A stretch of DNA of 64,000 nucleotides from an uncultured Alphaproteobacteria bacterium (GCA_944390265.1 CALXPK010000024.1:11183-75182), one strand, 5' to 3'. Shown: positions 17,941 through 43,015, counted from the stretch's first letter. The notes: generated from the sequence alone by a model not told the origin. Numbers and translations: made by a program.

Positions 17941-18636
17941 TTGGAAAAGTTGATGAAAAAAATTTTTGTTGAGACAGATTTTGCAAAATTGGATGTTGCT
18001 CGAAAACAACGAACCGGTTTTCCTGAGACGGTTTTTTGTTTGGGAAAGAGTAAAGAGCAAGTTGCTGATATCTTGCAGAATTTTGCATCGGTCGGGCAAA
18101 ATGTTTTGGGAACAAAATGTTCTCCTGAACAATTTGATTTTGCTTTGAAAAAAGGCTTGCCGGTTAAATATGATTCTTTATCACGAGTGATAAGCCTCGG
18201 GCAAAAAGAGACTAATCCTTTTAGGGGAAACATTGCCGTGTGCTGTGCAGGTACATCTGATTTGCCGATTTTGGAAGAAGCTGCTCAAGTTGCCGAATTT
18301 TTTGGAGCTGTTGTTGAAAGGTATGTTGATATCGGTGTTGCCGGAATCCAGCGTTTGTTTGCACAAATTGATAATATTCAAAAGGCTGACGTTGTTATTG
18401 CCGTGGCCGGAATGGAAGGGGCTTTGGCCAGCGTGTTGGCCGGTTTGGTCAGAACTCCGGTGATTGCCGTTCCGACATCGGTGGGATATGGCGCCTCTTT
18501 TCATGGTTTGGCGGCCATGCTTGCCATGCTTAATTCATGTGCCGAAGGCGTGTCGGTTGTTAATATTGATAATGGGTTTGGCGCTGCGGTTCAGGCTTGT
18601 CGAATCTTAGCACTAAAAGGAAGGATGAATGACTAA
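17941..18636 (+). CDS. larB: LarB, nickel-pincer nucleotide biosynthesis carboxylase/hydrolase (PurE-like)
   Basis: AVAGMEGALASVLAGLVRTPVIAVPTSVGYGASFHGLAAMLAMLNSCAEGVSVVNIDNGFGAA matches the LarB/PurE-like core. Confidence 0.85.
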   Translation: MEKLMKKIFVETDFAKLDVARKQRTGFPETVFCLGKSKEQVADILQNFASVGQNVLGTKCSPEQFDFALKKGLPVKYDSLSRVISLGQKETNPFRGNIAVCCAGTSDLPILEEAAQVAEFFGAVVERYVDIGVAGIQRLFAQIDNIQKADVVIAVAGMEGALASVLAGLVRTPVIAVPTSVGYGASFHGLAAMLAMLNSCAEGVSVVNIDNGFGAAVQACRILALKGRMND

Positions 18637-19855
18637 ATATTTATATTTTGACGGGTCTTGCGGTATTGCAGGAGATATGACAGTGGCGGCTCTGTTGGAT
18701 TTGGGTGCTCGTCGTGAAAAGTTGCAACAGGTTTTGGAAAGCCTAAAGTTGGATGGTGTGCATTATCATATTTCTCAAAAGTCTTCTTATAGTATTTTCG
18801 GGTGCGATTTTGATGTCCATCTTCTGCAGAAAACAGATTCTCATGAAGAAGAATATCTTATGAATGCACATCATCATGAACATCGTCATCATGAACATCG
18901 TCATTTGTCTGATGTGTATGAAATTATTGACCGTGGAAAAATGAGCGAAAGGGCACGCCTTTTGGCTAAAAAAATATTTGAAATAGTGGCACAGGCCGAA
19001 GCTAAAGCTCATGGCGTGAAGGTTGAAGATGTGCATTTTCATGAAGTGGGGGCTTTAGATTCAATTGTTGATATTGTTTCGGTTGCCGTGTTGATTGATG
19101 ATTTGGGTATTGAAAACTGTATTGTTACCGGTTTAAATGAAGGGCATGGCTTTGTTACTTGTCAGCATGGAAGTCTGCCGGTTCCGGTTCCTGCTGTTTT
19201 GAATATTGCCGAAAAATATGGCTTGATTTTGCGGCCGACCTCGGTTGAAGGTGAGATGGTGACACCTACCGGTATTGCCGTTGTTGCCGCTTTGAAAACA
19301 GATGCAAAACTTCCTCCTGCTTATAAAATTTTGAAGTCTGGTGTCGGGTTGGGAAAAAGAGATTTTGGTCGAGCTAATTTTTTGCGAGTTCAAATTATTG
19401 AAGATGTGGCTGACGAGAAACAAATTTTTGTAATTGAGAGTAATATTGATTATACCAGTGCCTAAGAATTGGGCTTTGCTCAAGAAAAACTGTTTGCTGC
19501 AAGTGCTTTGAATGTGCAGTTTGATCAAAAAAAAAAAAAAAAATGCCGACCGGCTTATCTGTTACGAATCATTTGCTCGGCTGATAAAGTTTCTGCTTTG
19601 GAAAAAGTTCTTTTTGAAAATACCTCGTCTATCGGTTGTCGGAAATATGTCGTGGAAAGAACAGTTATGACGCGTGAAAATATTTTAGTGCAGCTTGATT
19701 ACGGTCAAGTTAGCGTAAAAAAGTGTTGCTATTTGGATTTGGTGCGTTTTTATCCAGAATTTGAAAGTGTTAGACAATTGGCTTTGCAAACAGGTTTGTC
19801 TTTTCGAAAAATTTTTGATGATGCAAAATTGAAAGCTGAAGAAAACAAATGTTAG
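18629..19855 (+). CDS. larC: LarC nickel insertase (DUF111): the N- and C-terminal parts are in the same frame, separated by a single TAA at 19463-19465; an A17 tract lies at 19527-19543
   Basis: N-terminal part MTKYLYFDGSCGIAGDM... with His-rich HHHEHRHHEHRH; C-terminal part ...GCRKYVVERTVMTRENILVQLDYGQVSVKK... typical of the LarC C-terminal domain; both parts in frame 2. Confidence 0.75.
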
Positions 19856-20667
19856 ATAAGCTACAAAATTATCTGAAAAAAATGTCTGATGACGGAATTG
19901 CTTTGGCATATTCCGGTGGTGTCGATAGTTCTTTATTGCTAAAAATTTTGGCAGATTTGCATCGACAGAAAGATTTTCCTTTGGCCATATTGACCATGAA
20001 AACGGTTTTGCAAAGTTCCGAAGAAATTTCTGAGGCGGAATGTTTTGCCCGTACTTTAGGACTCAATATCAAAATATTGGTTTTTAATCCACTTTCTATA
20101 TCAGAAGTACACCATAATTCAGCTGATCGTTGTTATTTTTGTAAAAAAGCAATGTTTCAAAAATTTGCAGATTATGCCAAAGAGAATAACCTTCGTTATT
20201 TGATTGACGGAACCAATGCCGATGATGGAGACGAATATCGTCCGGGGTTGCGAGCTTTGTATGAGTTGGGTGTAATTTCTCCTCTGGCGGAACTTGGTAT
20301 TAATAAAGCCAATATTCGTCAAATGTCTCAAATTTTGGGACTAGCTTCGGCAACAAAGCCTTCCGTGCCATGTTTGGCTACAAGATTTGAATACGGAACT
20401 TGTTTGAATGAGATGCTGATTCAGCGTGTGGCGCAGGGAGAAGCTCTTATTAGACAAATGTTTCCCAATATGAAAAATTTGCGATTGCGTGTTCATTGCT
20501 GTGGTCGCTTAGCACGAATTGAGGTTGCTAATGAATATATAGGCGAGGTTTGTTCTTTGGCTCAAAATTTGGTTTTGAAATTGAAAAATTTGGGTTTTGA
20601 ATTTGTAACACTGGATTTGGAAGGATTTCGTTCCGGAAGTTTTGATGGACAGAAAAAGGGAAAATAA
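19849..20667 (+). CDS. larE: LarE, ATP-dependent sulfur transferase (PP-loop ATPase)
   Basis: PP-loop SGGVDSS; 272 aa. Confidence 0.85.
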   Translation: MLDKLQNYLKKMSDDGIALAYSGGVDSSLLLKILADLHRQKDFPLAILTMKTVLQSSEEISEAECFARTLGLNIKILVFNPLSISEVHHNSADRCYFCKKAMFQKFADYAKENNLRYLIDGTNADDGDEYRPGLRALYELGVISPLAELGINKANIRQMSQILGLASATKPSVPCLATRFEYGTCLNEMLIQRVAQGEALIRQMFPNMKNLRLRVHCCGRLARIEVANEYIGEVCSLAQNLVLKLKNLGFEFVTLDLEGFRSGSFDGQKKGK

Positions 20668-29111: not shown

Positions 29112-29291
29112 ATTTTTTTCTCCTTTTATTTTGTTAGACATAACAAACAACTGAGATGTAATCTTAAAAGTTGTATTTTCAACGGGTATAGGTATAAATA
29201 TTTTTTGTTTTTCACAGAGGAAAAAATAGAGCTATAAAATTTGGAAAAAAGAAACTATATATAAAGTAGTTATATTTTGAGGAGAACGGAT

Positions 29292-29687
29292 ATGAAAAAA
29301 CTTTTATCTCTTATGTTGGCTTTAACTTTGACGGCGGCTTGCTCATCGTCCGAAAATTCTTTCAAAGGCAAAGAATATAAAATGCAAGATGCTGCTAACA
29401 ACGCCGAGATTACTTTGGGTTTTGACGAGGCAGAAAATAATTATCACGGCCAAATCGTCAATAATTATTTCGGACAATATGAAGTTGATGGCAACAACAT
29501 TAAATTCGGCCCTGCCGGTGCAACCATGATGGCCGGACCGGAAAATTTGATGAAAGCCGAAAGCCAATATTTGCTGACTTTGCCGACCATTACCAGTTTT
29601 ACATTGGATGGCAAAAAACTTACCTTCAAAACCGCTGAAGGAAAAGAGTTGGTTTTTGAAGAAGTTGAAACAGCTCAAGAAAAATAG
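29292..29687 (+). CDS. META/HslJ-like lipoprotein
   Basis: RBS gaggag; lipobox LTAAC; NNIKFGP...MMAGPE pattern. Confidence 0.65.
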   Translation: MKKLLSLMLALTLTAACSSSENSFKGKEYKMQDAANNAEITLGFDEAENNYHGQIVNNYFGQYEVDGNNIKFGPAGATMMAGPENLMKAESQYLLTLPTITSFTLDGKKLTFKTAEGKELVFEEVETAQEK

Positions 29688-29695
29688 GCCCAAAT

Positions 29696-30028
29696 ATGCT
29701 GAAACTTTTGTCGGTCTTTTGCATTTTGTTTGCTTTTGAGGCGCAGGCGTTGGTTAATACCAGCACGCTTAAGGGAAAAATGCGGCAGTTGGATAAAATT
29801 TGCTGGGAAATCGGGCGGACGGCCTCTTTTCCGTCTATGTGCAAAAGCCCGACAAGGGTGGTCTATAAAAATGTGCTTTGCTGGGGGTGTCCGGAAGCCA
29901 CACGTTGTAATCCGGCTTGCAAAGGCGGCAAAGTTTGCATGAACCAAAAATGCGTTTGTCCGCCCAACCAACTTTTGTATGATTGCAACGGACGTTGTCT
30001 TCCGCCAACGGTGCCTTGTACAAAATAA
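29696..30028 (+). CDS. Small secreted cysteine-rich protein (110 aa, 12 Cys)
   Basis: Signal peptide MLKLLSVFCILFAFEAQA; CNPACKGGKVCMNQKCVCPPNQLLYDCNGRCLPPTVPC; locally GC-richer than its neighbours. Confidence 0.55.
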   Translation: MLKLLSVFCILFAFEAQALVNTSTLKGKMRQLDKICWEIGRTASFPSMCKSPTRVVYKNVLCWGCPEATRCNPACKGGKVCMNQKCVCPPNQLLYDCNGRCLPPTVPCTK

Positions 30029-39801: not shown

Positions 39802-40008
39802 ATGGGATGGTTAGAGTTAATCATTGCCGTGATACTTTTTATTATCCTTGCCGCTATTTTTATTAAAATAATAGCTATTGCTGTTATCTTAATATTCGCC
39901 GCCGCAGTTTGCTGGCTGCTTTGGTGGGGAATCTCATCATTGTTTGCCTATATCGGCTGGTGGGTCATTTTGGTGATTGTAATTGTTATAATAATATTAA
40001 AAAAATAG
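39802..40008 (+). CDS. Putative small hydrophobic membrane peptide (68 aa)
   Basis: Two predicted TM helices; sits between the repeat element and a terminated downstream gene. Confidence 0.3.
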   Translation: MGWLELIIAVILFIILAAIFIKIIAIAVILIFAAAVCWLLWWGISSLFAYIGWWVILVIVIVIIILKK

Positions 40009-40011
40009 CGT

Positions 40012-40365
40012 ATGGAACTAATAATTAGTATCATCACAGTCATACTTTGCTTGGTATACTGTATCTTTATGCTTGCTTTCTATCTTCAACTCATTGGAGT
40101 TGTTCTTGGGGCAACAAAAGGCAAATATCTGTGGATTCCGGCAATCATCGGTTTGTCAATTTATGCCATTCTGATGTGCTCTGAAGATTCTTGGATGTGG
40201 GTTTTCCCTAAAACTCTGGGATTTATCCTTGATTGGGGCGGCGGTTTATTCTGTATGGTCGCCGGAATTTATTTGACCTGGAAAACTTTCACCAGTTGGA
40301 AGTTTTTCTTAGGTATGACAGGCGTAAGCGCGGTTATCTTCTTGATTGCATTTATGCTTGGCTAA
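40012..40365 (+). CDS. Putative membrane protein (117 aa, about 4 TM)
   Basis: Strong intrinsic terminator immediately downstream. Confidence 0.4.
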   Translation: MELIISIITVILCLVYCIFMLAFYLQLIGVVLGATKGKYLWIPAIIGLSIYAILMCSEDSWMWVFPKTLGFILDWGGGLFCMVAGIYLTWKTFTSWKFFLGMTGVSAVIFLIAFMLG

Positions 40366-40398
40366 GGCAATAGTTTTCAGACTATTGCCTTTTTTTTG
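40365..40398 (+). terminator. Intrinsic terminator
   Basis: ggcaatagt-tttcag-actattgcc followed by T8. Confidence 0.7.
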
Positions 40399-40460
40399 TG
40401 GCATATCTGATAAAATTGGATTATATTCTGATAAAAATTTTTTACAAAAAGGATATGTCC

Positions 40461-42050
40461 ATGCTCAGAATTAATAATATCAAAGTGCCGTTGTCGGTTT
40501 CTTTGTCTGATTTGCCCGAATATGTCAAAAAAGAAATCGGCTATTCCGGAGTGTGGCTTTCTTTTAAAATCATCAAACAGGCGATAGATGCCCGCCGCAA
40601 GTCTGATGTGCATTACGTCTATGGTTTTGATGTTGAAGTAGAAGATGAACAAAAATTTTTATCTCATTATAAATCAAAAGATATTTTTGTTTTAGATGTG
40701 GAAGAAAAATATATCTTGCCAAAAACAAAATCACGCCTCAGACCGGTGATTGTCGGGAGTGGGCCGGCCGGAATGCTCGCCGGAATTGCGCTGGCCGAAG
40801 CCGGTTTAAAACCGATTATTCTCGAGCGCGGGCGCAAGGTGCCGGAGCGGCAAAAAGATGTGCAGGCTTTTTGGCAAGGCGGCGAACTTAATCCGGAATC
40901 TAACGTTCAGTTTGGGGAAGGCGGTGCCGGCACTTTTTCCGACGGTAAGCTGATGAGTGGTATCAAAAAAGACAAATACACCGCCAAAGTGTTGCAAGAG
41001 CTGGTTTCTGCCGGTGCACCGGAAGAGATTACATATTTAGCCAAACCCCATGTCGGTACCGATATTTTGGCGCGCGTGGTGCAAAATATTCGCTATAAGA
41101 TAGAAAGTTTGGGCGGTGAATATCGCTTTGAAAACAAACTTGAACATATTGTCATTAAAAATCAGCAAATTAGCGCGCTTAAAATTCGTGATGCACAAGG
41201 TCAAATCTATGAGCAAGCGGCGGATTCCGTTATTTTGGCGATTGGACACAGCGCGCGCGATACGTTTGAAATGCTTTATCGCGCCGGCTTTATGATAGAG
41301 CCCAAGCCTTTTGCTGTCGGAGTTCGTGTGGAACATAAACAAAGTCTGATAAGTACTGCACAATACGGAAAATTTTCAGCGAAACTCGGCGCGGCAGATT
41401 ATAAAATGGCGTACCATGCCGCCAACGGTCGCTCGGCTTTTACCTTCTGTATGTGTCCGGGCGGTGAGGTGATTGCCGCGGCTTCCGAGAAAAATCGGGT
41501 TGTGACCAATGGTATGAGCGAACATGCCCGCAACAAAGAAAATGCCAATGCCGCGCTTCTGGTTGGGGTTACGCCGCAAGATTTTGGCGGCAGCCATCCT
41601 CTGCAAGGAATGTATTGGCAGCGCGAACTTGAGGAAAAAGCCTTTACCGCCGGCGGGCGCAACTATCATGCACCGGCGCAACTGGTCGGCGATTTCTTGA
41701 AAAACAAAGATTCCAAACAAGCTGGCGATGTCAAACCCAGCTATACCCCAGGGGTGACCTTTGGTAACATGGCCGCGGTTTTGCCGCCATATATTCTGGA
41801 AACCATGCGCTTGGCGATTGTCGATATGGATAAAAAGCTCCATGGCTTTGCATCATATGATGCCGTGATGACCGGTGTGGAAAGCCGCAGTTCTTCTCCC
41901 ATTCGCATTTATCGCGATGCCACTTTGCAAAGCTCGGTTAAAGGCCTTTATCCTTGCGGCGAAGGTGCCGGTTATGCCGGCGGAATTATGTCGGCGGCAG
42001 TGGATGGGCTGAAATGTGCCGAAAAAATTGCAAACACATATAAATCGTAA
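40461..42050 (+). CDS. FAD-dependent oxidoreductase (COG2509-type uncharacterised dehydrogenase)
   Basis: VIVGSGPAGMLAGIALAEAG dinucleotide motif; C-terminal PCGEGAGYAGGIMSAAVDG. Confidence 0.8.
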   Translation: MLRINNIKVPLSVSLSDLPEYVKKEIGYSGVWLSFKIIKQAIDARRKSDVHYVYGFDVEVEDEQKFLSHYKSKDIFVLDVEEKYILPKTKSRLRPVIVGSGPAGMLAGIALAEAGLKPIILERGRKVPERQKDVQAFWQGGELNPESNVQFGEGGAGTFSDGKLMSGIKKDKYTAKVLQELVSAGAPEEITYLAKPHVGTDILARVVQNIRYKIESLGGEYRFENKLEHIVIKNQQISALKIRDAQGQIYEQAADSVILAIGHSARDTFEMLYRAGFMIEPKPFAVGVRVEHKQSLISTAQYGKFSAKLGAADYKMAYHAANGRSAFTFCMCPGGEVIAAASEKNRVVTNGMSEHARNKENANAALLVGVTPQDFGGSHPLQGMYWQRELEEKAFTAGGRNYHAPAQLVGDFLKNKDSKQAGDVKPSYTPGVTFGNMAAVLPPYILETMRLAIVDMDKKLHGFASYDAVMTGVESRSSSPIRIYRDATLQSSVKGLYPCGEGAGYAGGIMSAAVDGLKCAEKIANTYKS

Positions 42051-42106
42051 ATTCAAATGATAAAATTATTATGTTAAATAAAAACTTTAACTTTAAGGAG
42101 AGAGAT

Positions 42107-42964
42107 ATGGAAGAAAAAAAGACTTGTTCTTGCGGTCCCGATTGCACTTGCGGATGTAATGAAGGCAAGCCTTGCACTTGCGGATGTTCAGATGAAAAAA
42201 ATTGTTCATGCGGTTGTAAATGCGGTGAAAATTGCAAATGTGGTAAAGGAATGACACGCATCTTTTCCGCTTTGCTGATTGGTGCCGGTTTGTGTGCCGG
42301 TGGCTTTTTTCCGGGATATTATTACTATCAAACCAAGATGAACTCAAACTATGTAACGGTTAAAGGTTTGTCCGAAATGCCGGTGCGGGCTGATTTGGCG
42401 GTTTGGGATTTGAAGTTTGTGGTGACTAATAACGATTTGTCGATTGCGCAGCAGGAAATTGCCCAAAAAGCGCAAACCATTATTGCTTTTTTGAAAGAGC
42501 AAGGCTTCACCGATGACGAGATTGTGGCTGAATCTATCAACACCAACGATTTGATGGCTAATCCGTATCGTAGTGATGGTGCGGCAACCTCGCGTTATAT
42601 TTTGAACCAAACAATTAAAGTTCGGTCGCAAAAGGTTGATTTGGTGGCGCAAAGTTTGGGTAAAACCGGAAGTTTGATTGCGCGAGGCGTTGTTTTTGAT
42701 AATCAATATGGTTCACCGGTTTCATACGTTTTTACCAAACTTAATGAAATTAAGCCGAAGATGTTGCAAGAAGCCACTGAAAATGCTGAGGCTTCGGCGC
42801 AAGAATTTGCCAAAAGTTCAAATTCTGCCGTTGGCAAGATTAAATATGCCAATCAGGGTGTCTTTTCCATTTTGCCGGCCGAACAAACCGGCGGAGATTC
42901 CGAGGCATCGCAAATTGAAAAGAAAGTCAGAGTGGTTTCGACTATTGAATATTGGTTGAAATAG
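42107..42964 (+). CDS. Fusion of a metallothionein-like Cys-rich N-terminus (16 Cys in about 42 aa), a TM helix and a periplasmic SIMPL/BP26-like domain
   Basis: RBS aaggagag 6 nt upstream; CSCGPDCTCGCNEGKPCTCGCSDEKNCSCGCKCGENCKCGKG; TM RIFSALLIGAGLCAGGFF; SIMPL-like remainder. Confidence 0.75.
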   Translation: MEEKKTCSCGPDCTCGCNEGKPCTCGCSDEKNCSCGCKCGENCKCGKGMTRIFSALLIGAGLCAGGFFPGYYYYQTKMNSNYVTVKGLSEMPVRADLAVWDLKFVVTNNDLSIAQQEIAQKAQTIIAFLKEQGFTDDEIVAESINTNDLMANPYRSDGAATSRYILNQTIKVRSQKVDLVAQSLGKTGSLIARGVVFDNQYGSPVSYVFTKLNEIKPKMLQEATENAEASAQEFAKSSNSAVGKIKYANQGVFSILPAEQTGGDSEASQIEKKVRVVSTIEYWLK

Positions 42965-42979
42965 GCGATTTTGATAAAC

Positions 42980-43015
42980 AAAAAAAAGCTCTCGGTTTCG
43001 AGAGCTTTTTCTTTT
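42980..43015. terminator. Bidirectional intrinsic terminator (SIMPL gene + / nagB -)
   Basis: agctctcg-gttt-cgagagct with A8 on the left and T5 on the right. Confidence 0.7.

What the first reader, a model, noticed from the sequence alone, without database searches (positions are those of the whole stretch)
42107..42964. Metallothionein-like cytoplasmic tail fused to a periplasmic SIMPL/BP26 domain
The first about 45 residues contain 16 cysteines in C-x-C / C-x-x-x-C repeats (CSCGPDCTCGCNEGKPCTCGCSDEKNCSCGCKCGENCKCGKG) in a pattern typical of metallothioneins. A single TM helix and a SIMPL domain follow (BP26/Omp28-like, an immunodominant periplasmic protein in Brucella; established). A membrane-tethered metal-thiolate cluster attached to a SIMPL domain suggests metal (Cu/Zn/Cd) buffering or sensing at the inner membrane. 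I am not aware of this domain combination being described.
Basis: partly seen in the sequence, partly recalled or inferred. Interest (0 to 1): 0.58.

Follow-up and report, generated by a model that had tools for sequence, protein, structure and literature searches.

The report
Membrane-tethered cysteine-rich metal-binding tail on SIMPL
An uncultured gut alphaproteobacterium carries an envelope protein whose cytoplasmic tail is packed with cysteines, built around a conserved 20-residue, 7-cysteine unit that elsewhere sits on copper chaperones in copper-resistance operons, so it is most likely an uncatalogued membrane-anchored copper/zinc sponge.

Summary
ORF 42107-42964 (+) encodes 285 aa: a 48-residue tail with 14 Cys (not 16), one transmembrane helix and a SIMPL domain (Pfam E=1e-21; C. 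jejuni SIMPL-like 7C50 E=5e-38). The tail is translated and under selection. A conserved Shine-Dalgarno precedes its ATG. The downstream Met is F or A in relatives. Every Cys column is invariant despite TGT/TGC swaps, and pN/pS is 0.18.

In related gut Alphaproteobacteria the tail ranges from 0 to 47 Cys through tandem 54-57 bp repeats, and differs even between proteins with 99.5% identical cores.

The new result is that the tail contains a conserved unit, C-x-C-G-P-D-C-x-C-G-C-[QN]-E-G-K-[PE]-C-T-C-G. A metagenome scan found it in 63 loci, 59 of them non-SIMPL. Seven are HMA (CopZ-like) proteins lying next to CsoR and/or a CopA-type ATPase. Others carry YHS, GrpE, HisRS, DeoC, YlbF or LytB domains, or are stand-alone 54-86 aa proteins.

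No Pfam or NCBIfam model covers the unit, and no paper in the library prints it.

Best reading: a cytoplasmic, membrane-tethered metal-thiolate (probably Cu(I)) buffer. Metal binding itself is untested.

The parts
42095..42100 (+). Shine-Dalgarno AAGGAG, 6 nt before the start codon
   Evidence: Read directly. AAAGGAG occupies the same position in 7 relatives.
42107..42964 (+). CDS, 285 aa plus stop: Cys-rich tail, TM helix, SIMPL domain
   Evidence: There are 1560 homologues at E<=1e-3.
42107..42250 (+). Cytoplasmic Cys-rich tail, residues 1-48, with 14 Cys, no aromatic residue and no His
   Evidence: AF2 pLDDT is below 50 for most of residues 1-47. pN/pS is 0.18, and the Cys columns are invariant.
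42125..42184 (+). Conserved 7-Cys unit CSCGPDCTCGCNEGKPCTCG (residues 7-26)
   Evidence: The unit occurs in 40 of 51 long-tail SIMPL proteins. The same unit was found in 59 non-SIMPL metagenome loci, including CopZ-like proteins.
42185..42250 (+). Degenerate CxC/Cx3C repeat region, residues 27-48. The 10-codon segment of residues 25-34 (CGCSDEKNCS), which begins inside the unit, is absent from five close relatives.
   Evidence: The alignment shows a 30-nt in-frame indel. TRF finds no recent DNA repeat in the window.
42260..42316 (+). Hydrophobic core of the single TM helix / signal-anchor (residues 52-70, IFSALLIGAGLCAGGFFPG)
   Evidence: Kyte-Doolittle maximum. AF2 helix 49-80.
42299..42331 (+). 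Juxtamembrane motif GGFFPGYYYYQ (residues 65-75), near-invariant in the family
   Evidence: G66, F68 and G70 are invariant, and P69 and Y72-74 are at least 90% conserved in 46 sequences.
42347..42961 (+). SIMPL domain (residues 81-285), predicted periplasmic, with no Cys
   Evidence: Pfam PF04402. PDB 7c50 and 10am at E~5e-38. Foldseek 7c50 E=1e-17 with TM 0.80, and BP26 4hvz E=3e-12. Core Cys content is 0.0% across the family.
42983..43010 (.). Intrinsic-terminator-like hairpin (12-bp stem) between the convergent SIMPL and nagB genes

Best explanation
The gene encodes a bitopic inner-membrane protein. An uncleaved signal-anchor exports the SIMPL domain to the periplasm and leaves the 48-residue N-terminal tail in the reducing cytoplasm.

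The tail consists of one conserved 7-Cys unit (C-x-C-G-P-D-C-x-C-G-C-N-E-G-K-P-C-T-C-G) followed by degenerate CxC repeats. It is disordered when metal-free and folds around soft metal ions as thiolate clusters. Cu(I) is the most likely metal; Zn(II) and Cd(II) are possible. It therefore acts as a metal sponge or buffer held at the inner face of the membrane.

Capacity is tuned quickly by tandem gain and loss of repeat units, from 0 to 47 Cys among orthologues. The SIMPL protein probably serves mainly as a membrane scaffold, possibly an abundant and oligomeric one. This parallels the metal-binding tails grafted onto housekeeping proteins elsewhere.

Shown: translation, selection, composition, domain identity, repeat dynamics, and reuse of the unit in copper operons. 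Inferred: topology, metal binding, which metal, and the scaffold role.
For: Translation and selection:
- A conserved SD-ATG precedes the tail; Met49 is not conserved; Cys columns are invariant with synonymous codon swaps; tail pN/pS is 0.18 against 0.09 for the rest of the protein.

Composition over 51 long tails:
- Cys 27%, Gly 15%, Lys 17%, aromatics about 1%.
- His is enriched 7-fold over the core.
- Cys spacing: CxC 388, Cx3C 144, Cx5C 68, CC 32.
- Some orthologues carry His-rich N-termini instead of Cys, or alongside it (L048, L053, L066, P0070, P0099). Swapping one metal ligand for another fits metal binding.

Structure and topology:
- AF2 gives a tail with pLDDT below 50 over most of its length, a TM helix at 49-80 and a folded SIMPL domain.
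- Tail-less orthologues begin 'MKK' followed by the hydrophobic segment, a classic signal-anchor. Flanking charge is biased to the N side (3.1 against 2.25 K+R). The closest solved relatives are the C. jejuni SIMPL-like protein 7c50 and 10am, which its depositors named 'Periplasmic protein'. The SIMPL core has 0.0% Cys.

The unit is specific, not merely compositional:
- Non-Cys positions are conserved: G10 in 45 of 46 distinct units, G14 in 42, K15 in 38, E13 in 36.

The unit is reused in copper handling:
- An exact DNA-pattern scan found 63 metagenome loci, of which only 4 are SIMPL, across about 25-73% GC.
- Seven loci encode 1-5 units followed by an HMA domain. Each has CsoR and/or a P1B ATPase alongside where the DNA extends.
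- The ATPase in L117 carries the Cu(I) signature CPC / YN(x)4P / M(x)2SS.
- One locus has a YHS-like domain (E=3.7e-5, below Pfam's cut-off).

Rapid tuning of copy number:
- L012 has a 54-bp unit x7.5 and L038 a 57-bp unit x5.
- P0022 and P0027 have 99.5% identical cores but tails that differ by 38 aa.
- L117 and L138 carry 4 and 5 units; their CsoR and HMA segments are 100% identical and CopA 99.7%.
Against: - No metal-binding measurement exists.
- The tail does not match any curated MT family: Pfam MT models give E=0.16-2.5, NCBIfam gives nothing, and no MT appears in PDB sequence searches.
- No metal-homeostasis gene is consistently linked to the SIMPL gene. Neighbours change between lineages. 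CorA or TerC appear in only a few of them, and the commonest neighbour is an FAD-dependent protein of unknown role.
- No copA, copZ or HMA gene lies in the 64-kb window.
- The unit also occurs behind signal peptides (L093, L099, L105, L109, P0164-P0166), so it is not confined to the cytoplasm.
- The charge bias across the TM is modest.
- Cleavage of the hydrophobic segment by signal peptidase cannot be excluded from sequence alone.
Confidence: 0.6

Rival explanations
1. The tail is a sacrificial thiol buffer against oxidants or electrophiles (ROS, HOCl, reactive sulfur or carbonyl species) at the membrane, rather than a metal store.
For: The SIMPL family includes E. coli YggE, which NCBIfam annotates as 'oxidative stress defense protein'. 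The match here is weak (E=7e-6, 25 bits against a cut-off of 249). Metallothioneins in general also scavenge reactive species (abstracts of PMC10612145 and PMC10603854). A desulfoferrodoxin-like protein carries the unit (L124).
Against: The strongest contextual link of the unit is to HMA proteins next to CsoR and/or CopA, not to redox enzymes. The conserved non-Cys residues (G, E, G, K, P) and fixed spacing argue for a defined cluster geometry. Co-enrichment of His fits metal ligation better than thiol chemistry.
Confidence: 0.15
2. The tail is a sensor. Metal or redox loading of the cytoplasmic tail alters oligomerisation or activity of the periplasmic SIMPL domain, or the reverse, so that a signal crosses the membrane.
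For: The TM and juxtamembrane motif GGFFPGYYYYQ is nearly invariant, which suggests that the helix is more than an anchor. BP26, a SIMPL protein, self-assembles into barrel-like oligomers (PMC12915080 abstract). PDB 10am holds 9 chains of a full-length homologue.
Against: Tail length varies from 0 to 47 Cys among close orthologues and even at 99.5% core identity. That is hard to reconcile with a tuned signalling input. The same unit is appended to unrelated housekeeping proteins (GrpE, HisRS, DeoC), which suggests an autonomous add-on.
Confidence: 0.1
3. The hydrophobic segment is a cleavable signal peptide. The tail is then an extended n-region released from the mature SIMPL protein, so the two parts are not tethered in the cell.
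For: Tail-less orthologues look like ordinary secretory precursors (MKK followed by a hydrophobic stretch). SIMPL proteins such as BP26 are soluble periplasmic proteins (established knowledge).
Against: There is no small-x-small cleavage motif after the hydrophobic core. The segment GGFFPGYYYYQ is far more conserved than signal peptides usually are. AF2 models one continuous helix, 49-80, running into the domain.
Confidence: 0.1
4. The tail binds an iron-sulfur cluster rather than Cu or Zn. From memory, and not tested here, the Cys-rich N-terminal domain of Archaeoglobus fulgidus CopZ does this.
For: The unit is also fused to LytB/IspH (a 4Fe-4S enzyme) and to a desulfoferrodoxin-like protein. 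It forms an N-terminal Cys-rich extension of CopZ-like proteins.
Against: Dense CxC spacing, Gly/Lys-rich linkers, tandem copy-number variation and disorder are typical of thioneins, not of Fe-S folds. Tails of 0-47 Cys on one orthologue imply capacity, not a single cofactor site.
Confidence: 0.04
5. Annotation artefact: translation starts at Met49 and the Cys-rich stretch is untranslated leader.
For: An in-frame ATG exists at 42251, and some automatic gene calls start there or further downstream (P0019, P0123).
Against: Met49 is F or A in relatives. The SD sits before the tail ATG. Cys codons are conserved through synonymous change, pN/pS is 0.18, and all indels are in frame.
Confidence: 0.01

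Closest known systems
Campylobacter jejuni SIMPL-like protein (PDB 7C50; also 10am 'Periplasmic protein') and Brucella BP26 (4HVZ)
   Same: The C-terminal domain is shared: 40% identity and TM 0.80 to 7c50, and the same fold as BP26. 10am likewise has an N-terminal hydrophobic anchor.
   Different: None of these carries a Cys-rich N-terminal tail, and the GGFFPGYYYYQ juxtamembrane motif is absent from the C. jejuni protein. The function of the SIMPL domain itself is unknown.
Metallothioneins (operational class), e.g. plant type-1 and Drosophila MtnA CxC-rich thioneins, and bacterial SmtA/BmtA
   Same: About 29% Cys, CxC/Cx3C motifs, a Gly/Lys-rich sequence, no aromatics, predicted disorder without metal, and tandem-repeat evolution.
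   Different: This is not a small free protein but the tail of a 285-aa membrane protein. It has no significant sequence match to any Pfam MT family (best E=0.16-2.5). It is unrelated to the zinc-finger-like SmtA/BmtA fold family. Reviews describe characterised bacterial MTs as few and mostly cyanobacterial (PMC13578184).
CopZ-type HMA copper chaperones in csoR-copZ-copA operons
   Same: The identical 20-residue unit forms the N-terminal extension (1-5 copies) of HMA proteins lying between CsoR and a CPC-type P1B ATPase.
   Different: The window protein has no HMA domain (no GMTCxxC), and no cop genes lie nearby.
Metal-binding tails grafted onto housekeeping proteins (H. pylori HspA/GroES, SlyD, HypB, UreE; Cys/His-rich termini of P1B ATPases). 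Recalled from established literature, not tested here.
   Same: A lineage-specific, length-variable, ligand-rich terminal extension on a protein whose core function is unrelated. The unit is likewise found on GrpE, HisRS, DeoC, YlbF and LytB.
   Different: Those tails are mostly His-rich and Ni/Zn-oriented. Here there is a defined 7-Cys unit, and the carrier is a periplasmic-domain protein, so the tail is membrane-tethered.

Membership tests
SIMPL / DUF541 (Pfam PF04402) | Sequence match to the family model above the gathering threshold | tested here: met
   E=1.2e-21, 78.4 bits against a cut-off of 25.2, residues 83-251.
SIMPL / DUF541 (Pfam PF04402) | SIMPL fold as in solved members (7C50, BP26 4HVZ) | tested here: met
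   phmmer 7c50 E=5e-38 over residues 81-285. AF2 model against PDB: 7c50 E=1e-17 with TMt 0.80; 4hvz E=3e-12.
SIMPL / DUF541 (Pfam PF04402) | Extracytoplasmic (periplasmic) location | not testable with these tools
   Inferred from the N-terminal signal-anchor, the 'Periplasmic protein' label of 10am, and the Cys-free core.
Metallothionein (operational definition) | High Cys content (about 15-30%) with CxC / CxxC / CC motifs | tested here: met
   14 of 48 residues, 29%. The family-wide figure is 27%. CxC is the dominant spacing.
Metallothionein (operational definition) | Few or no aromatic residues | tested here: met
   The window tail has 0 F/Y/W and 0 His. Across the family, aromatics make up about 1%.
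Metallothionein (operational definition) | Small free protein (below about 10 kDa) | tested here: not met
   The Cys-rich region is the N-terminal 48 residues of a 285-aa membrane protein. Stand-alone proteins of 54-86 aa with the same unit exist elsewhere.
Metallothionein (operational definition) | Binds metal ions in thiolate clusters | not testable with these tools
   Only contextual support: the unit is fused to HMA proteins lying next to csoR and/or copA.
Curated MT sequence families (Pfam Metallothio_2, Metallothio_5, Metallothio_Pro and others) | Significant match to a family model | tested here: not met
   Best are Metallothio_5 at E=0.16-2.5 and Metallothio_2 at E=0.74, all below cut-off. 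There is no hit to the SmtA-type model. NCBIfam gives none.
7-Cys unit C-x-C-x3-C-x-C-G-C-x-E-G-K-x-C-x-C-G (defined here; not in Pfam or NCBIfam) | Full spacing plus the conserved G10, E13, G14 and K15 | tested here: met
   Residues 7-26, CSCGPDCTCGCNEGKPCTCG. Consensus from 46 distinct units. In alignment A2, nine of 20 columns are invariant: seven Cys plus G10 and G14.
HMA / CopZ copper chaperone | HMA fold with a GMTCxxC metal site | tested here: not met
   No HMA hit in the protein. No GM[TSH]CxxC motif anywhere in the window.

The most novel reading that the evidence does not exclude
The 20-residue unit C-x-C-G-P-D-C-x-C-G-C-[QN]-E-G-K-[PE]-C-T-C-G defines a previously uncatalogued, phylogenetically widespread family of modular bacterial Cu(I)/soft-metal thiolate mini-domains (host DNA of 25-73% GC). 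It would be a 'bacterial thionein repeat'. It exists as free small proteins, as periplasmic peptides, and as copy-number-variable tails grafted onto copper chaperones, chaperones/housekeeping enzymes and membrane proteins. The SIMPL fusion would be the first natural membrane-tethered metallothionein-like protein in bacteria, tuning metal capacity in gut Alphaproteobacteria by repeat expansion.
Probability: 0.45. Interest if true: 0.75.

Novelty: new variant of a known kind. Interest (0 to 1): 0.62.

Why it matters
Characterised bacterial metallothioneins are few and mostly cyanobacterial (SmtA/BmtA type). If the unit found here binds metal, three things follow:

- It adds a new, widely distributed thionein module to the bacterial metal-handling repertoire. 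The module is easy to recognise in sequence.
- It shows how that module is grafted onto unrelated proteins.
- It gives a concrete, testable example of rapid capacity tuning by repeat expansion (0 to 47 Cys on one orthologue) in uncultured members of the human and animal gut microbiota, where dietary Cu and Zn loads are high.

It would also give unit-specific annotation to these tails, which the curated domain models tested here leave uncovered. It supplies short natural peptides for metal-capture applications.

Tried and rejected
- **Tail-only phmmer.** A search against 1.84 billion representatives returned only 8 hits and none of the SIMPL relatives. I suspect composition filtering, so it gave leads and not a census.
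- **The search for homologous proteins.** A unit+HMA query yielded only 2 candidates. The third search was therefore not spent.
- **Curated families and structures.** Pfam MT families were sub-threshold only. NCBIfam gave nothing. A PDB sequence search with the tail found only chance cystine-knot and TET2 matches.
- **Conserved metal-related neighbour of the SIMPL gene.** None. Synteny (FAD-dependent gene upstream, nagBA downstream) holds only among close relatives. CorA or TerC adjacency is confined to a few lineages.
- **Metalloregulator operator or promoter upstream.** The 56-nt intergenic region gave nothing beyond chance.
- **Other Cys-rich genes in the roughly 90 related loci.** Only off-frame artefacts.
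- **Neighbours of the single-TM Cys-tail proteins L118 and L119.** Not informative.
- **Literature.** No paper was found for PDB 10am. Nothing combines SIMPL with metallothionein. The five papers returned for a membrane-anchored bacterial MT-like protein were all off-topic. No paper prints the unit sequence.
- **TRF on the window tail.** No recent DNA repeat; the repeats there are old and degenerate.
- **Rejected: start at 42071 or at Met49**.

Full report
**1. What is in the sequence**

The window is 41% GC. Between 42071 and 42964 on the + strand it holds one open frame. AAGGAG at 42095-42100 lies 6 nt before ATG 42107. From that start the product is 285 aa. It begins MEEKKTCSCGPDCTCGCNEGKPCTCGCSDEKNCSCGCKCGENCKCGKG, continues with the hydrophobic segment IFSALLIGAGLCAGGFFPG and the run YYYYQ, and ends in a 205-residue domain.

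At the window's own Cys frequency of 1.0%, that has a probability of about 6e-17. The C-terminal domain matches Pfam SIMPL at E=1.2e-21. It also matches two solved proteins at E~5e-38: the C. jejuni SIMPL-like protein 7C50, and 10am, which its depositors called 'Periplasmic protein'.

An AlphaFold model built on 46 homologues gives a tail with pLDDT below 50 over most of residues 1-47, a single helix at 49-80 and a confident SIMPL domain. Foldseek returns 7C50 (E=1e-17, TM 0.80) and Brucella BP26 (E=3e-12). A 12-bp-stem terminator-like hairpin follows at 42983-43010, between this gene and the convergent nagB.

**2. Is the tail translated?**

Yes. Seven close relatives were recovered from uncultured gut Alphaproteobacteria MAGs. 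All of them show the following:

- AAAGGAG sits 6-8 nt before the tail ATG.
- The alternative start, Met49, is Phe or Ala in five of the seven.
- Every Cys column is invariant while the codons alternate between TGT and TGC.
- The only length difference is a 30-nt in-frame indel.
- Tail pN/pS is 0.18, against 0.09 for the rest of the protein, with the same pS of about 0.5.

The longer gene call from ATG 42071 is not supported. The upstream frame is unconserved and has no Met in relatives.

**3. Distribution within the SIMPL family**

The protein has 1560 homologues at E<=1e-3. Among the best 120 and among 80 species-level genome loci, the N-terminus before the invariant GGFFPGYYYY motif takes many forms:

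- nothing, as in 'MKKIISAALL...';
- 2-4 Cys;
- 8-22 Cys;
- 32 Cys (L038) and 47 Cys (L012).

L012 carries a 54-bp unit 7.5 times at 89% identity, and L038 a 57-bp unit 5 times at 90%. P0022 and P0027 have 99.5% identical cores but differ by exactly two units, 38 aa.

On a neighbour-joining tree of the core, long tails fall in at least five clades interleaved with short or absent tails. One deep clade is entirely tail-less. A few orthologues have His-rich N-termini instead of Cys, or as well as Cys (L048, L053, L066, P0070, P0099).

Composition over 51 long tails is 27% Cys, 15% Gly, 17% Lys and about 1% aromatics. His is at 2.2%, against 0.3% in the core. The core contains no Cys at all.

**4. 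The tail contains a specific unit, not just a composition**

Forty of the 51 long-tail proteins carry C-x-C-x3-C-x-C-x-C-x5-C-x-C with strongly conserved non-Cys residues. The consensus is C-x-C-G-P-D-C-[KT]-C-G-C-[QN]-E-G-K-[PE]-C-T-C-G. In the window it is residues 7-26.

A tail-only phmmer search of 1.84 billion representative proteins gave only 8 hits. All of them were non-SIMPL proteins with this unit: DoxX, DUF1207, secreted peptides and an HMA fragment.

I then scanned the metagenome collection for the exact back-translated second half of the unit. That pattern carries about 51 bits, so chance matches are not expected. There were 63 loci, and 55 of them have the complete unit in register. 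Only 4 are SIMPL genes.

Host domains of the other 59 loci were assigned by reading the ORFs, with Pfam run on representatives:

| Host | Loci |
|---|---|
| HMA-domain proteins with 1-5 units | 7 |
| YHS-like protein (E=3.7e-5, below Pfam's cut-off) | 1 |
| One 86-aa human-gut protein | 14 |
| Stand-alone Cys-only proteins of 54-68 aa (two are fragments) | about 7 |
| Signal-peptide peptides | 4 |
| Single-TM proteins with an N-terminal Cys tail and a His-rich C-terminus | 6 |
| Multi-TM proteins | 5 |

The remaining loci carry the unit as a terminal or internal insertion in GrpE, HisRS, DeoC, YlbF, LytB/IspH, DUF1292, a T4SS coupling protein and a desulfoferrodoxin-like protein.

Host DNA ranges from 25% to 73% GC. 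The peptide is therefore conserved across very different codon usage and, presumably, across phyla.

**5. The link to copper**

In L117, a CsoR-family repressor gene, a gene encoding four Cys units plus HMA, and an HMA-bearing P1B ATPase gene lie head to tail on one strand. The ATPase carries CPC, YN(x)4P and M(x)2SS. By established knowledge this is the signature of Cu(I)-transporting P1B-1 pumps.

Each of the seven HMA loci shows CsoR and/or the ATPase alongside where the DNA extends. One of them, L150, is only 63-78% identical to L117 and so is a different organism. L117 and L138 carry 4 and 5 units; their CsoR and HMA segments are 100% identical and CopA 99.7%, the same copy-number polymorphism seen in the SIMPL tails.

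This is the best available evidence that the unit handles Cu(I) in the cytoplasm. It is contextual, not biochemical.

**6. Topology and mechanism**

Tail-less orthologues begin with a textbook signal-anchor. The N-side flank is richer in K and R than the C-side (3.1 against 2.25; 67 of 120 sequences have more on the N side, 11 fewer). The closest solved homologues are 7c50 and 10am, the latter named 'Periplasmic protein' by its depositors. The core lacks Cys. With one helix, the tail must then be cytoplasmic, where thiols stay reduced.

I therefore read the protein as a membrane-tethered thionein. It would be disordered without metal and would wrap soft metal ions in thiolate clusters. Its capacity would be adjusted by repeat gain and loss.

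The near-invariance of GGFFPGYYYYQ argues that the helix is retained in the mature protein and is functionally important. BP26 self-assembles into barrel-like oligomers (PMC12915080). If this protein does the same, the tails would be clustered; that is speculation.

The role of the SIMPL domain itself remains unknown. The variety of other carriers suggests that it may be mainly a scaffold.

**7. What argues against, and the rivals**

- Nothing here measures metal binding.
- The tail is not a member of any curated MT family.
- The SIMPL gene has no conserved metal-related partner.
- The window has no cop genes.
- The unit also occurs in exported proteins.

The rivals are a thiol redox buffer, a sensor coupled to SIMPL, a cleaved signal peptide carrying the tail, and Fe-S binding. 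An untranslated leader is already refuted. Each is scored in the rivals section with its test.

**8. Comparison with what is known, and novelty**

The C-terminal domain is an ordinary SIMPL member. The tail works like a metallothionein, but it fails two membership criteria: it is not a small free protein, and it matches no curated MT family.

It resembles the metal-binding tails grafted onto housekeeping proteins and P1B ATPases; that comparison rests on established literature recalled from memory. It differs in having a defined 7-Cys unit and in being anchored to the membrane by a protein whose other domain is periplasmic.

No Pfam or NCBIfam model covers the unit. No paper in the library prints its sequence or links SIMPL with metallothionein. 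[quoted passage not shown]

I rate this a new variant of a known kind, and moderately to clearly interesting (0.62). The fusion is real, the module is widespread and uncatalogued, and the hypothesis can be tested directly. The function, however, rests on inference.

Noticed in passing
window 29696-30028 (+): A 110-aa ORF with a signal-peptide-like N-terminus (MLKLLSVFCILFAFEAQA) and 14 Cys in the presumed mature part. It has no Pfam match and lies directly after a META-domain gene (29277-29687). It could be a small secreted disulfide-rich protein.
   Followed up: partly
window 17941-20667 (+): A cluster resembling the lactate-racemase nickel-pincer cofactor genes. It comprises a LarB-like AIR carboxylase (17941-18636), a Ni_insertion (LarC) gene split into two ORFs (18629-19465, which carries a His-rich stretch HHHEHRHHEHRH, and 19469-19855), and a PP-loop LarE-like gene (19849-20667).
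   Followed up: partly
window 42299-42331 (residues 65-75): The juxtamembrane motif GGFFPGYYYYQ is invariant or nearly so across 46 homologues at 54-89% identity. It is absent from the C. jejuni homologue. The anchor helix therefore probably has a role of its own, such as oligomerisation or a lipid or partner contact.
   Followed up: no
L117 2161-5843 (-) and L138: A high-GC (about 70%) csoR / Cys-unit-HMA / copA gene trio. The chaperone carries 4 units in L117 and 5 in L138, while CsoR and the HMA segment are 100% identical and CopA 99.7%, which indicates strain-level repeat polymorphism.
   Followed up: yes
L100, L101, L108, L113, L120, L121, L125, L127, L131-L133, L136, L145, L153: Fourteen human-gut contigs (about 48% GC in the three measured) encode nearly the same 86-aa protein. 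Its N-terminal half is Cys-rich and includes the unit; its C-terminal half is Cys-poor (KEIAFELCRTLIEGRTYTAEGVAEAFRKIYDTVKSCK). It has no Pfam or NCBIfam family.
   Followed up: partly
L106, L118, L119, L129, L130, L149: A second family of single-TM proteins (about 41% GC in the three measured, similar to the window) has the same layout: an N-terminal Cys tail with the unit, a TM helix, then an external region that ends in a His-rich stretch. No Pfam match, and the neighbours are uninformative.
   Followed up: partly
L002-L081 (genome loci): All 18 or so long-tail SIMPL loci come from MAG sets with labels such as BRZ, E##, UMGS or HGUT, several of them human-gut sets. None comes from the ruminant sets (RUG, RGIG), which carry only short or absent tails. 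This is confounded by phylogeny and was not tested statistically.
   Followed up: no
window 39802-40365 (+): Two small, extremely hydrophobic ORFs (68 and 117 aa) lie between the flagellar flgC/fliE genes and the FAD-dependent gene. The 117-aa one has no Pfam match and was detected in 7 of the related loci at 35-100% identity.
   Followed up: no
window 40398-42050 (+) and loci L044, L052, L074, L090: The FAD-dependent protein (PF21688, function unknown) is the most frequent upstream neighbour of the SIMPL gene. It occurs in 21 of 81 loci, including a separate tail-bearing clade where the gap is only 10 nt. This may be ancestral gene order rather than a functional link.
   Followed up: partly
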